This document shows positions 57,298 to 59,201 of a DNA stretch of 64,000 nucleotides, in pieces. Each line of letters starts with the position of its first letter. Positions within the stretch are counted from its first letter, which is position 1. The notes below the pieces were generated by a model. It was not told where the DNA came from. It saw only the letters and a program-made list of their open reading frames with translations, and ran no database searches. Position numbers and translations under genes: made by a program. Source of the stretch: Gammaproteobacteria bacterium (GTDB lineage Bacteria > Pseudomonadota > Gammaproteobacteria > Eutrophobiales > Eutrophobiaceae); NCBI GenBank assembly GCA_965238225.1, contig OZ250183.1, forward strand, positions 1,216,001-1,280,000. Reading direction: 5' to 3'.

Positions 57298-57768
57298 TTA
57301 AAACAGGTTTTTGATAAATTTCGAAAGAACAAAACCATGAATTGTGAGAAAGACCCACGGAATGTATACCTCAATGTGGGTAAATGGTAGATACAGTTTC
57401 TTGTTAGTGCCACGCTGTACTTTATCCCACTCTAAATCATAAGGTGCCGATGGTAACTCCGCCTCCATTTCATGAATTACCGCAAACTTTGCTGTATTCA
57501 GGTCTTTGTATGATTTTATTAGCCTAGACCACATTAAACATAACGCAATACCAGCTAACGCTATCAACCAATTAAAGCTAGCGCTGGTTTGTGCGCCAAA
57601 ATTGATATAACTCACTAATGCGATTAGCGCGGTGTTTACTGAAAGAAAAAATGAATTAGCAGTTTGTCTTCTTGCGCTTACTCTGTCCGCCATTTCAACA
57701 AATAGCTTATATTGCTCAAGTAGGTGAGCGTTGTACTCTAAACCGTATTCACTTTGACTTTTTGACAT
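57298..57768 (-). CDS. Small multi-TM protein resembling RipA-family oligomeric membrane proteins; candidate defence effector
   Basis: HLLEQYKLFVEMADRVSARRQTANSFFLSVN, TM helices, SYKDLNTAKF...EW; begins 9 nt after the TIR gene stop. Confidence 0.7.
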   Translation of the reverse strand: MSKSQSEYGLEYNAHLLEQYKLFVEMADRVSARRQTANSFFLSVNTALIALVSYINFGAQTSASFNWLIALAGIALCLMWSRLIKSYKDLNTAKFAVIHEMEAELPSAPYDLEWDKVQRGTNKKLYLPFTHIEVYIPWVFLTIHGFVLSKFIKNLF

Positions 57769-57777
57769 ATGCGTTAA

Positions 57778-58158
57778 CTACAGGCTATTAATAAAGTCTG
57801 TAATTGCCGACCACGTCCAATTTACGACTTTTGTGCCTGCAAGTTGCGGGGGTATTTGACCTTTATCATCATTATGGATATGAACACCAATCATAGGTAT
57901 TTCTTCATCATTAGCGCACTGCATCTCCCATTTAGCACCATCTGAGATTCTAGTGTTTTTACTTATTAATGCAATTACACCGTCACAGCCTCTAATTCTG
58001 GTGCGGCAGTTTGTTTTCCATTTTGTATCCCACGCTTGTTTCGCAGATAAGTCAATGTACTTAAATGGCGAATCGGCTTTTAAGGATTGGCCTTTTAATA
58101 AATCACGAGAGTTAACATCTTCAATAGCAAAACTGATAAATATCCCTTTTGTAACCAT
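57778..58158 (-). CDS. ThsB-like (DUF1863-type) TIR domain protein
   Basis: IFISF beta1, CRTRIRGCDGVIALIS, WE with the putative catalytic Glu, IPMIGV. Confidence 0.85.
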   Translation of the reverse strand: MVTKGIFISFAIEDVNSRDLLKGQSLKADSPFKYIDLSAKQAWDTKWKTNCRTRIRGCDGVIALISKNTRISDGAKWEMQCANDEEIPMIGVHIHNDDKGQIPPQLAGTKVVNWTWSAITDFINSL

Positions 58159-58293: not shown

Positions 58294-58369
<76 letters not shown>

Positions 58370-58387: not shown

Positions 58388-58464
58388 TGGGGTGACTGAT
58401 GGGGCTCGAACCCACGACCACCGGGATCACAACCCGGGGCTCTACCAACTGAGCTACAGTCACC
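58388..58464 (-). tRNA. tRNA-His (GUG)
   Basis: G-1:C73 pair, anticodon loop UUGUGAU. Confidence 0.95.
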
Positions 58465-58478
58465 ATAAAATCTTGATT

Positions 58479-59039
58479 TGGTGCGCCTGGCAGGACTCGA
58501 ACCTGCTACCCTCGGCTTAGCTTACCAACTACGCCTTTCGACGCCCTGATTATAACAAGTTTGTGGTCTGGACTATCTCTTCACCATTACAGGTGTCACA
58601 CGTATAGTCTCTACGGAATCCATCTAAAATCAGACGCCAAATTTACATTTTTTGACTGATTACCTGTAGGTATTTTTACCCTCAAAATGATTAAACCAAT
58701 AACAGCAAATGGCGTATGCCAAGTCAATGGGTTCAAAACAATGAGCCCTTAGTCGATTTAATCATCGATTTAATCAAGTTAAGCCTTTAAAATACCCATG
58801 CCGCCCTTCTCGCTTAGCATGCTACATATAGAATATAGTATGCTCATGCCAATATGAGGCAGCCACCGGTTTCCTCGGGATTGCCATCAGCACAGACTGC
58901 ACAGCCTGTCTGTTAAGGGTTCCCCGATATAGTGCGATCCACTTTATAGGTTTTGTTTTCCTATAAAGGCTCCTATTTCAAACACAAACAAGTGTTTGAT
59001 GTTAAAGGCCGATGCTCTATCCAAATGAGCTACAGACGC
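58479..59039 (-). tRNA. tRNA-Arg (UCU), intron-containing (exon 1 59039-59005, exon 2 58520-58479)
   Basis: Joined exons give a 77-nt cloverleaf GCGUCUG...UCGGC-CUU|CUAA-GCCGA...CAGGCGC-ACCA with A20. Position fits a Pro-Arg-His-Lys cluster. Confidence 0.93.
58521..59004 (-). ncRNA. Group I self-splicing intron (probably IC3), 484 nt, inserted after U34
   Basis: Exon ends in U and intron ends in G. IGS UAGGAG; P2, P3 (UCGCAC/GUGUGA), P4 (UCGGG/CCCGA), R CGUAGAGACUA, S AAGAGAUAGUCC, P8, and P9 with a GAAA loop. Confidence 0.93.
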
Positions 59040-59058
59040 AAATATCACACCAAATTAT

Positions 59059-59135
59059 TGGTCGGGGCAGAGAGATTCGAACTCCCGACCCTCTGCTCCC
59101 AAAGCAGATGCGCTACCAAGCTGCGCTATGCCCCG
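59059..59135 (-). tRNA. tRNA-Pro (UGG)
   Basis: C1:G72, anticodon loop UUUGGGA, CCA end. Confidence 0.95.
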
Positions 59136-59172: not shown

Positions 59173-59201
59173 ATGATACGCACCAGTATAGTTTGCGTCA
59201 A
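59173..59201 (-). promoter_or_regulatory. Sigma70 promoter of the Pro-Arg-His-Lys tRNA operon
   Basis: TTGACG-N17-TATCAT followed by GC-rich CGCC. Confidence 0.65.

What the first reader, a model, noticed from the sequence alone, without database searches (positions are those of the whole stretch)
58479..59039. Group I intron splitting tRNA-Arg(UCU) at anticodon position 34/35
Seen: the Arg tRNA in the Pro-Arg-His-Lys cluster is broken into ...UCGGC-CUU (ends 59005) and CUAA-GCCGA... (starts 58520) by 484 nt ending in G. The insert has a full ribozyme core. The IGS UAGGAG (58975-58970) pairs GAG with exon CUU (U34-G wobble, P1) and UAG with the 3' exon CUA (P10). Also present: P2 (58968-58960/58950-58942), P3 (58937-58932/58601-58596), P4 (58927-58923/58879-58875), P7 GACUA/UAGUC (58609-58605/58575-58571), P8 and a GNRA-capped P9 (58545-58531). 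Known: the classic bacterial tRNA group I introns are in Leu(UAA) 34/35, fMet(CAU) 33/34, Ile(CAU) 36/37 and Arg(CCU) 36/37; I do not recall an Arg(UCU) 34/35 intron in Gammaproteobacteria. Inference: the 5' exon (CUU) is the same as in Leu(UAA) introns, so this may be a Leu-type intron retargeted by changing P10. AGA codons occur in genes throughout this window, so splicing would be essential if this is the only copy. The intron could also destroy an anticodon-loop phage attB site.
Basis: partly seen in the sequence, partly recalled or inferred. Interest (0 to 1): 0.92.

Follow-up and report, generated by a model that had tools for sequence, protein, structure and literature searches.

The report
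Group I intron in tRNA-Arg(UCU)
The only gene for the arginine tRNA that reads AGA codons in this small bacterial genome is split by a well-preserved self-splicing (group I) intron carrying the wreck of its homing-endonuclease gene, and it is an ordinary member of an intron family found in many bacterial genomes.

Summary
On the minus strand, tRNA-Arg(UCU) is split after U34 into exon 1 (59039-59005) and exon 2 (58520-58479) by 484 nt ending in G. Intronless relatives join exactly these two exons.

A group I fold (P1-P9, P3/P7 pseudoknot) holds across 33 homologous short introns. In that set, 98.6% of cells pair, against 35-43% in slid controls, and 47 of 74 pairs show compensatory change. The window's intron keeps 74 of 74 pairs.

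The extra 246 nt in loop L6 is a decayed PD-(D/E)XK homing-endonuclease gene. It is intact in relative G014 (Pfam PF11645, E 2.6e-38) and broken in G004.

No other Arg(UCU) gene exists in the complete 1.72 Mb genome. AGA is 24% of Arg codons, so splicing must work. Splicing itself was not observed.

The novelty claim fails. One capped scan gave 94 Arg(UCU) 34/35 introns from several phyla, and 19 of 401 genomes sampled from the same class carry one. A 2020 preprint already lists 21 tRNA intron site types. This is a new member of a known kind, of modest interest.

The parts
59005..59039 (-). tRNA-Arg(UCU) exon 1 (positions 1-34; ends C32 U33 U34)
   Evidence: abuts exon 2 in intronless relatives
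58521..59004 (-). group I intron, 484 nt; omega-G at 58521
58479..58520 (-). tRNA-Arg(UCU) exon 2 (C35 U36 A37 ... CCA)
59004..59007 (-). P1 5' strand: exon C32 U33 U34 plus the first intron base U
   Evidence: pairs with GGAG at 58970-58973; the 4 P1 pairs are 100% paired in 33 sequences
58979..58998 (-). P1 extension hairpin (7 bp, variable among homologues)
   Evidence: a length-variable region in alignment A1
58970..58975 (-). internal guide sequence UAGGAG: GAG pairs with exon CUU (P1), UAG pairs with 3' exon CUA (P10)
   Evidence: GGAGC is present in 101 of 101 Arg 34/35 introns and AGGAGC in 80 of 101
58942..58968 (-). P2 hairpin (9 bp)
   Evidence: 8 of 9 pairs show changes on both sides; G000 9 of 9 paired
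58932..58937 (-). P3 5' strand
   Evidence: 5 of 6 pairs covary
58596..58601 (-). P3 3' strand
58922..58927 (-). P4 5' strand
   Evidence: 2 of 6 pairs covary, 99% of cells paired
58875..58880 (-). P4 3' strand
58884..58919 (-). P5 and P5a. CCUUAAC...GAUGG looks like a GAAA-tetraloop receptor; that resemblance is recalled, not tested
   Evidence: P5 pairs are 100% paired, with C-G to U-A covariation; coordinates
58868..58874 (-). P6 5' strand GGAAACC
58615..58621 (-). P6 3' strand GGAUUCC
58622..58867 (-). L6 insertion, 246 nt: decayed PD-(D/E)XK homing-endonuclease gene
   Evidence: short homologues have 5-60 nt here; tblastn with the intact G014 protein
58698..58811 (-). endonuclease remnant matching residues 6-39 of the G014 protein, with 4 in-frame stops
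   Evidence: E 2e-6 against this 561-nt subject
58614..58685 (-). endonuclease remnant matching residues 113-136; its stop codon UAG lies in the core stretch CCGUAGAG
   Evidence: 14 of 24 identical, E 4e-7; the same C-terminal piece survives in other remnants L053, L080, L110
58605..58614 (-). J6/7 and P7 5' strand (GUAGAGACUA)
   Evidence: aligned to the Rfam RF00028 consensus; P7 100% paired, with U-A to C-G covariation
58582..58595 (-). P8 hairpin
   Evidence: 3 of 4 pairs covary
58576..58581 (-). J8/7 AAGAGA
   Evidence: invariant or nearly so in A1; aligned to the Rfam consensus
58571..58575 (-). P7 3' strand UAGUC
58565..58567 (-). P9.0 5' strand ACC, pairing with GGU at 58524-58526
   Evidence: 2 of 3 pairs covary
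58545..58559 (-). P9 hairpin
   Evidence: 4 of 4 pairs covary
58532..58543 (-). P9a hairpin with an invariant GAAA loop
   Evidence: 4 of 4 pairs covary; GAAA is invariant
59173..59201 (-). promoter-like site TTGACG-17-TATCAT upstream of tRNA-Pro (consensus match only)
59059..59135 (-). tRNA-Pro(UGG), upstream neighbour in the cluster
58388..58463 (-). tRNA-His(GUG), downstream neighbour
58294..58369 (-). tRNA-Lys(CUU), last gene of the cluster

Best explanation
A bona fide, splicing-competent group I intron of the small tRNA-intron type interrupts the genome's single tRNA-Arg(UCU) gene between U34 and C35.

Inferred mechanism, from the fold and established group I chemistry:
1. The Pro-Arg-His-Lys cluster is transcribed.
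2. The guide GAG (58970-58972) pairs with anticodon-loop C32 U33 U34, with U34-G as the wobble pair that marks the cleavage site.
3. A free guanosine bound at P7 attacks after U34.
4. Omega-G (58521) then takes the same site, and UAG (58973-58975) pairs with C35 U36 A37 (P10).
5. U34 attacks after omega-G, which ligates the loop to CUUCUAA.

The intron once moved at the DNA level by means of a PD-(D/E)XK homing endonuclease encoded in loop L6. In this genome that gene has lost its catalytic middle and carries stop codons. The intron is therefore stranded: it can be inherited or precisely lost, but not spread.

Shown here: boundaries, fold, conservation, the endonuclease remnant, and the gene being single-copy. 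Inferred: the chemistry and splicing in the cell.
For: - **Boundaries.** Intronless genes in relatives join bases 1-35 directly to 520-561. ARAGORN reads an uninterrupted tRNA-Arg(tct) in 12 of 12 such loci, and an intron at the same place in 8 loci.
- **Fold.** On 33 short homologues (the window and its genus left out), 74 pairs in 16 helices are 98.6% paired, against 35.0-42.6% with partners slid by 1-3 columns. 47 pairs change on both sides. 0 of 500 shuffles reach any of the five measures. Every intron helix except P1 (whose pairs hardly vary) has compensatory changes.
- **The window's intron.** It keeps 74 of 74 pairs, U at -1, G at omega, and the conserved J6/7-P7 and J8/7-P7' stretches that Rfam's group I model aligns.
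- **Rfam on orthologues.** Short orthologues match RF00028 over the whole model at E 3.6e-6, 3.2e-4 and 0.094.
- **Constraint.** Against genus-mate G004, identity is 96% in the exons, 93% in the 3' core, 88% in the 5' core and 75% in L6. G000 also has a deletion of about 210 nt there. One P2 pair differs by a full compensatory change, A-U against G-C.
- **Endonuclease.** The G014 intron ORF of 136 aa matches PF11645 at E 2.6e-38 and PDB 2OST at E 1.4e-4. G000 keeps only residues 6-39 (with stops) and 113-136.
- **Necessity.** Among 41 tRNA genes there is no other Arg(UCU); the other Arg genes are ACG, CCG and CCU. AGA accounts for 3607 of 14800 Arg codons in 641 long ORFs, and for 37 in seven housekeeping genes of the window.
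Against: - No RNA evidence. No RNA run of this organism was found, so ligated exons were not seen.
- Rfam's group I model scores only 16.6 bits (E 0.096 in 621 nt) against a gathering score of 50. It found nothing at E<=1 in a 4-kb search. No orthologue reaches 50 bits either.
- The 246-nt remnant in L6 could slow or misdirect folding.
- The alignment used for the 74-of-74 count was made by adding the window's sequence to a fixed alignment, which drops inserted columns.
Confidence: 0.9

Rival explanations
1. The intron is real, but in the cell it depends on a host protein (an RNA chaperone or a tRNA-binding factor) rather than being fully self-sufficient, because the long L6 remnant hampers folding.
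For: L6 carries 246 nt of decaying sequence where short homologues have 5-60 nt. The minimum-energy fold of the whole precursor does not reproduce the core.
Against: All core pairs and conserved joints are intact. Introns with full-length endonuclease genes in the same loop are common: 26 of the 28 precursors of 560 nt or more in the scan carry one. So a large L6 is tolerated by this family.
Confidence: 0.15
2. The gene is a dead tRNA gene. The intron no longer splices, and AGA is read some other way.
For: The endonuclease gene has decayed. Splicing was not observed.
Against: No other tRNA with a UCU anticodon exists in a complete single-contig genome. AGA is the second most used Arg codon. 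The ribozyme core is conserved far better than L6 and keeps 74 of 74 pairs.
Confidence: 0.03
3. One reading: a Leu(UAA) intron recently retargeted to Arg(UCU) in this lineage by changing P10.
For: Both sites follow CUU and both guides use GAG for P1. Only the P10 part differs, UU in Leu introns against UAG here. Leu(UAA) introns occur in 4 genomes of the same family.
Against: The Arg(UCU) 34/35 introns form a large family across several phyla (94 in one capped scan) with their own endonuclease gene. In the core tree the 3 Leu and 4 CAU introns lie outside them (plus one Arg intron, L061; support for that split only 0.61). G000's nearest relatives are other Arg introns. A shared ancient origin remains possible, but neither the direction nor the root can be told from this biased sample.
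Confidence: 0.05
4. Assembly artefact or chimera.
For: None found.
Against: An independent assembly of the source sample covers 58486-59088 in one contig with 0 differences. Genus-mate G004 has the same arrangement.
Confidence: 0.01

Closest known systems
[quoted passage not shown]
   Same: It has the same position in the anticodon loop (after U34), the same 5' exon CUU and the same P1 guide GAG. Size and helix set are similar. Four genomes of the window's own family carry it. Its P8-P9 region is 75-77% identical to the window's.
   Different: The host tRNA differs. The P10 guide differs: UU pairing with AA, against UAG pairing with CUA. Core identity to G000 is only 61-65% for the 3 Leu introns in the sample.
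tRNA-Arg(CCU) intron of Agrobacterium and tRNA-Ile(CAU) intron of Azoarcus (36/37 type; recalled, and cited through)
   Same: These are small bacterial tRNA group I introns listed as subgroup IC3. They lie in the anticodon loop, with U at -1 and G at omega.
   Different: They are inserted two bases further 3', in other tRNAs. No sequence of these was at hand, so no direct comparison was made. A 36/37 variant within tRNA-Arg(UCU) itself exists in G058, L064 and L142, with the guide changed to UUGGA.
Synechocystis tRNA-fMet intron with the PD-(D/E)XK homing endonuclease I-Ssp6803I (PDB 2OST; the name is recalled, the depositors call it 'putative endonuclease')
   Same: This family's intact endonuclease (G014) belongs to the same Pfam family, PF11645 (E 2.6e-38), and matches 2OST at E 1.4e-4. 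It too is a tRNA-intron-borne gene.
   Different: The host tRNA and site differ (Arg 34/35 against fMet 33/34). In the window the gene is only a remnant with no Pfam match.
Catalogue of 21 tRNA intron site types (K. P. Williams, bioRxiv 10.1101/2020.01.27.920355; whole main text read)
   Same: It shows that group I introns split bacterial tRNAs at many more sites than the four classical ones. It also shows that Rfam's model underscores them because none of its 12 seeds were bacterial.
   Different: The table and figure that list the 17 new types are images and the supplements are closed. I could not see whether Arg(UCU) at loop position 3 is among them.

Membership tests
Group I intron | P1 helix formed by the 5' exon end and an internal guide, with a U-G wobble at the cleavage site | tested here: met
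   C32-G, U33-A and U34-G with GAG at 58970-58972. All 4 P1 pairs are 100% paired in 33 homologues, and GGAGC is present in 101 of 101.
Group I intron | G as the last intron base (omega-G), and P10 with the 3' exon | tested here: met
   G is at 58521, and UAG pairs with CUA. The intron ends in G in the 94 scan precursors that fit the Arg 34/35 pattern; this was partly a selection criterion.
Group I intron | Conserved core: P3-P7 pseudoknot, P4-P6 domain and P8, supported by covariation | tested here: met
   P3 has 5 of 6 pairs covarying, P4 2 of 6, P5 1 of 2, P6 2 of 5, P7 1 of 5 and P8 3 of 4. Overall 98.6% of cells pair, against 35-43% in slid controls. G000 keeps 74 of 74.
Group I intron | Guanosine-binding P7 with conserved J6/7 and J8/7 joints | tested here: met
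   AGAGACUAUACG and GAAGAGAUAGUCC align to the Rfam consensus with high posterior probability. These stretches are invariant or nearly so in A1.
Group I intron | Score at or above Rfam RF00028's gathering threshold (50 bits) | tested here: not met
   The window scores 16.6 bits, E 0.096. Orthologues score 36.4, 29.9 and 21.7 bits. Williams 2020 notes that none of the model's 12 seeds were bacterial and used an 18-20 bit threshold.
Group I intron | GTP- and Mg-dependent self-splicing; ligated exons in RNA | not testable with these tools
   No RNA run of this organism was found. The skip-484 joints come from contigs with differences and low depth, that is, from other organisms' intronless genes.
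Subgroup IC3 (small tRNA introns) | Subgroup-specific architecture: no P2.1, no P5abc extension, P9.0 present, tetraloop-receptor contacts | tested here: inconclusive
   The helix set found (P1, P2, P3-P9, P9.0, GAAA-capped P9a) fits my recollection of IC3. No subgroup model or reference sequence was available. Homology to Leu(UAA) introns, which a database lists as IC3, is the only link.
PD-(D/E)XK homing endonuclease, Pfam PF11645 | Full-length domain with the catalytic D...(E/Q)xK core | tested here: not met
   In the window only residues 6-39 (4 stops) and 113-136 remain, and the 45-aa fragment has no Pfam match. The feature is met in G014 (E 2.6e-38).

The most novel reading that the evidence does not exclude
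The tRNA-Arg(UCU) 34/35 intron with its PD-(D/E)XK endonuclease is a large, cross-phylum mobile family that the searchable literature does not name. It has also spawned a lineage that slid two bases to 36/37 within the same tRNA gene, by rewriting the guide from UAG|GAG to UU|GGA. That would be a natural case of group I retargeting, with donor and derived forms both on hand.
Probability: 0.35. Interest if true: 0.5.

Novelty: new member of a known kind. Interest (0 to 1): 0.3.

Why it matters
For this genome, decoding of about a quarter of all arginine codons hangs on a ribozyme. Standard tRNA finders also miss the gene, so automatic annotation would report a missing essential tRNA.

More widely, the data gathered here show three things:
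- The Arg(UCU) 34/35 intron is common, yet Rfam's model underscores it.
- An I-Ssp6803I-like endonuclease travels with it. All stages of the homing cycle are visible among close relatives: empty site, intron with intact gene, broken gene, remnant, and ORF-less intron.
- A sister lineage sits two bases away with a matching change of guide sequence.

None of this changes what is known about how group I introns work.

Tried and rejected
**Rfam.** A search of 4 kb at E<=1 gave no group I hit. Only a 621-nt search gave a weak one. A whole-genome search gave two further weak hits (L002 at E 0.25, L003 at E 4.8). I did not follow these up, and a motif search found only one copy of this intron core in the genome.

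**Single-sequence folding.** (z = -3.6) does not recover the core and was not used.

**RNA evidence.**
- The look-up of sequencing runs found no RNA run of this organism. Only the source sample's runs X1 and X2 held most of the words.
- Read laying showed 'skips 484' joints in X1 (depth 3.9 against 35.7 for the organism's own contig) and in metatranscriptome X19 (a contig with 3+1 other letters, and 11 in the neighbouring tRNA-His).
- I read these as intronless genes or transcripts of other organisms, not as splicing here.
- X16 has a contig that skips 58617-58868 with 14 other letters between. I read it as a relative's shorter L6.

**Covariance model.** I did not build one. The tool's stated time limits rule out a model of about 300 positions. 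I added the window's sequence to alignment A1 by script instead.

**Literature.**
- Searches found no paper that names an Arg(UCU) group I intron.
- Passages read: tRNAscan-SE 2.0, the Hausner review (0 occurrences of UCU), tRNADB-CE, a cyanobacterial tRNA paper, the Bartonella paper, the database paper PMC11835236, and the Stoddard review (reference list only).
- PMC93479 and PMC3008403 are not held.
- The Williams preprint's table, figure and supplements could not be seen, so the site may already be listed there.

**Other checks.**
- The attB idea was not tested.
- The DotA family search was meant as a crude check that the genome is not a Legionella or Coxiella relative. Nothing rang in the genome or in the controls, so it shows little.
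- The tRNA-Ile to tRNA-Ala gap elsewhere in the genome holds an ordinary ORF and is irrelevant.

Full report
**What is there**

On the minus strand of the window lies a tRNA cluster Pro(UGG)-Arg-His(GUG)-Lys(CUU). It sits downstream of cysS and upstream of two unannotated small ORFs and the tig-clpP-clpX-lon genes.

ARAGORN in default mode sees only Pro, His and Lys. Between Pro and His the sequence reads as the 5' part of a tRNA up to C32 U33 U34 (59039-59005). Then come 484 nt ending in G (59004-58521). Then comes C35 U36 A37 A38 and the rest of the tRNA with its CCA (58520-58479).

**Boundaries from relatives**

I searched 61 genomes with the 561-nt precursor (the window's own plus 60 relatives).
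- Seven genomes of the window's family (G000, G004, G014, G015, G016, G018, G021) carry a homologous insert in the same gene. One genome of another family (G058) does too. Intron lengths are 223 to 694 nt.
- In 12 of 12 further loci that I examined, the gene is uninterrupted, and query bases 1-35 lie directly against 520-561.
- Within the window's genus, G004 has the intron and G001, G002, G005, G006 and G008 do not. G003 matched only the 3' exon. G007, G009 and G010 (63-89% complete) gave no match.

The splice junctions therefore do not depend on any folding argument.

**Is it a group I intron?**

Rfam's general model is weak here. There was no hit at E<=1 in 4 kb, and 16.6 bits (E 0.096) in a 621-nt search. 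That alignment does place the J6/7-P7 and J8/7-P7' stretches on their consensus. Short orthologues do better, at 36.4 bits (E 3.6e-6), 29.9 bits (E 3.2e-4) and 21.7 bits (E 0.094). None reaches the gathering score of 50.

I therefore tested the fold by comparison.
- 103 of the 120 lie inside an intron-bearing tRNA call.
- I aligned 30 non-redundant short precursors from these, plus G015, G018 and G016. The window and its genus were left out.
- I wrote a structure by hand on G015: the tRNA stems, P1, P2, P3, P4, P5, P6, P7 (pseudoknotted with P3), P8, P9.0, P9 and P9a.

On that alignment, 98.6% of 2418 cells are standard pairs, against 35.0-42.6% when the 3' partners are slid by 1-3 columns. 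47 of 74 pairs change on both sides, and none of 500 shuffles reaches any of the five measures. P2, P3, P4, P5, P6, P7, P8, P9.0, P9 and P9a each have compensatory changes. The P1 pairs do not vary, except that the first intron base is U or C opposite G.

When the window's precursor is added to this alignment, it satisfies 74 of 74 pairs. G004 gives 74, G021 72, G014 71 and G058 68. U precedes the 5' splice site, G ends the intron, GAG faces CUU, and UAG faces the 3' exon's CUA.

I conclude that the defining architecture of a group I intron is present and intact, although the curated Rfam threshold is not met.

**The extra length**

Short family members have a few to about 60 nt in loop L6. 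The window has 246 nt (58867-58622).

In G014 the same loop holds an open frame of 136 codons. It matches Pfam PF11645 (PD-(D/E)XK endonuclease) at E 2.6e-38, and the solved structure 2OST at E 1.4e-4. From memory, 2OST is I-Ssp6803I, the homing endonuclease of the Synechocystis tRNA-fMet intron.

In G004 the gene has two stop codons and a frameshift. In the window only residues 6-39 (with four stops) and 113-136 remain, and the catalytic middle is deleted. The gene's stop codon is the UAG inside the core stretch CCGUAGAG. This probably explains why the last 24 or so codons survive in several independent remnants (L053, L080, L110).

Of the 103 scan precursors, 29 have a match to this protein, including 26 of the 28 that are 560 nt or longer.

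Against G004, identity is 96% in the exons, 93% in the 3' core, 88% in the 5' core and 75% in L6. This fits selection on the ribozyme and decay of the endonuclease gene.

**Need for splicing**

The genome is one contig of 1,722,049 bp and is rated 100% complete. It has 41 tRNA genes without this one. The Arg genes are ACG, CCG and CCU only. By the standard wobble rules, none of these reads AGA.

AGA accounts for 3607 of 14800 Arg codons in 641 ORFs of 300 or more codons. It occurs 37 times in lon, clpX, clpP, tig, cysS, lpxH and ampD. The precursor must therefore be spliced in the cell.

I could not observe this. No RNA run of the organism was found. The joints seen belong to other organisms' intronless genes.

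**How common, and how new**

Of the 103 scan precursors:
- 94 fit tRNA-Arg(UCU) split at 34/35;
- 2 are Arg(UCU) split at 36/37;
- 3 are Leu(UAA) at 34/35;
- 4 are CAU tRNAs at 33/34.

Their records are titled Gammaproteobacteria (Chromatiales, Woeseiaceae, Arenicellales, Thiodiazotropha, Thiohalophilus, Lentisalinibacter), Acidobacteriota, Bacteroidota, Bacillota, Nitrospiraceae, Desulfobacterales, Anaerolineae and candidate phyla.

In an even sample of 401 genomes of the window's class, 19 hold the motif. The reversed control pattern matched none. All 20 matches are in tRNA-Arg(UCU): 19 at 34/35 and one at 36/37.

My literature searches found no paper that names this site. However, a 2020 preprint by K. 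P. Williams, whose main text I read in full, reports 5292 intron-split bacterial tRNA genes of 21 site types, 17 of them new. It also remarks that Rfam's seeds are not bacterial. Its table is an image and its supplements are closed, so I cannot say whether this site is listed. Given its abundance, I expect that it is.

**Relation to other tRNA introns**

Four genomes of the window's family carry classical Leu(UAA) introns. Their guide is UUGAG: the same GAG for P1, with UU for P10.

In a FastTree of 199 core columns from 111 introns, the window's intron pairs with G004 (support 0.94), among gammaproteobacterial Arg introns. The Leu and CAU introns lie outside the Arg introns, apart from one Arg intron (L061) that joins them; support for that split is only 0.61. 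Median core identity of G000 is 77% to the other Arg 34/35 introns, 72% to Arg 36/37, 65% to Leu and 62% to CAU.

The three 36/37 introns (G058, L064, L142) form a clade with support 1.0. When the tree is rooted on Leu+CAU, that clade sits inside a 52-leaf clade of 34/35 introns with support 0.98. All three have the guide UUGGA, which pairs GGA with U34 C35 U36 and UU with A37 A38. The wobble G is at the same distance from P2 as in the window.

This looks like a two-base slide of the insertion site with a rewritten guide. The sample was chosen by an exact motif and the root is assumed, so I hold this at about one in three.

Introns of the window's family members are scattered over the tree. 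That fits horizontal spread by homing, but resolution is limited.

**Verdict**

The finding is real and correctly described. It is a well-preserved group I intron in an essential single-copy tRNA gene, with a dead homing-endonuclease gene in L6. It is not rare and not a new kind of element. I score it as a new member of a known kind, with modest interest.

Noticed in passing
L015:954-1267 (-), genome G050: The tRNA-Lys(CUU) gene of the same Pro-Arg-His-Lys cluster carries a 237-nt group-I-like intron after the third anticodon base (CUCUU|...G|AA). The Arg(UCU) gene there is intronless.
   Followed up: partly
L164-L167 (G023, G028, G019, G012): Four genomes of the window's family carry classical tRNA-Leu(UAA) 34/35 group I introns of 252-475 nt with the guide UUGAG. 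The window's own genome has an intronless Leu(UAA) gene (genome 1042659-1042744).
   Followed up: partly
L168:1031-1370 (-), genome G058: G058, which has the 36/37 Arg(UCU) intron, also has a 266-nt intron in a tRNA with anticodon CAU, apparently at 33/34.
   Followed up: no
L155 and L163 (G306): One genome holds two copies of an intron-bearing tRNA-Arg(UCU) gene with identical core stretches.
   Followed up: no
window 57298-57768 and 57778-58158 (-): Two ORFs of 156 and 126 aa lie between tRNA-Leu(UAG) and the tRNA cluster. Neither has an NCBIfam match at E<=1e-5.
   Followed up: no
window 59173-59201 (-): A promoter-like site TTGACG-17-TATCAT (10 of 12) lies just upstream of tRNA-Pro. No terminator-like site was found after tRNA-Lys.
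   Followed up: no
L005 (G004) intron, P9a loop: The genus-mate's L9 loop reads UAAA where all 33 aligned homologues and the window have GAAA. Its endonuclease gene is also broken, by two stops and a frameshift.
   Followed up: no
runs X16 and X19 (metatranscriptomes): Contigs from RNA libraries match parts of the intron core at 90-95% identity. Related introns or precursors are therefore present in environmental RNA libraries; DNA carry-over is not excluded.
   Followed up: no
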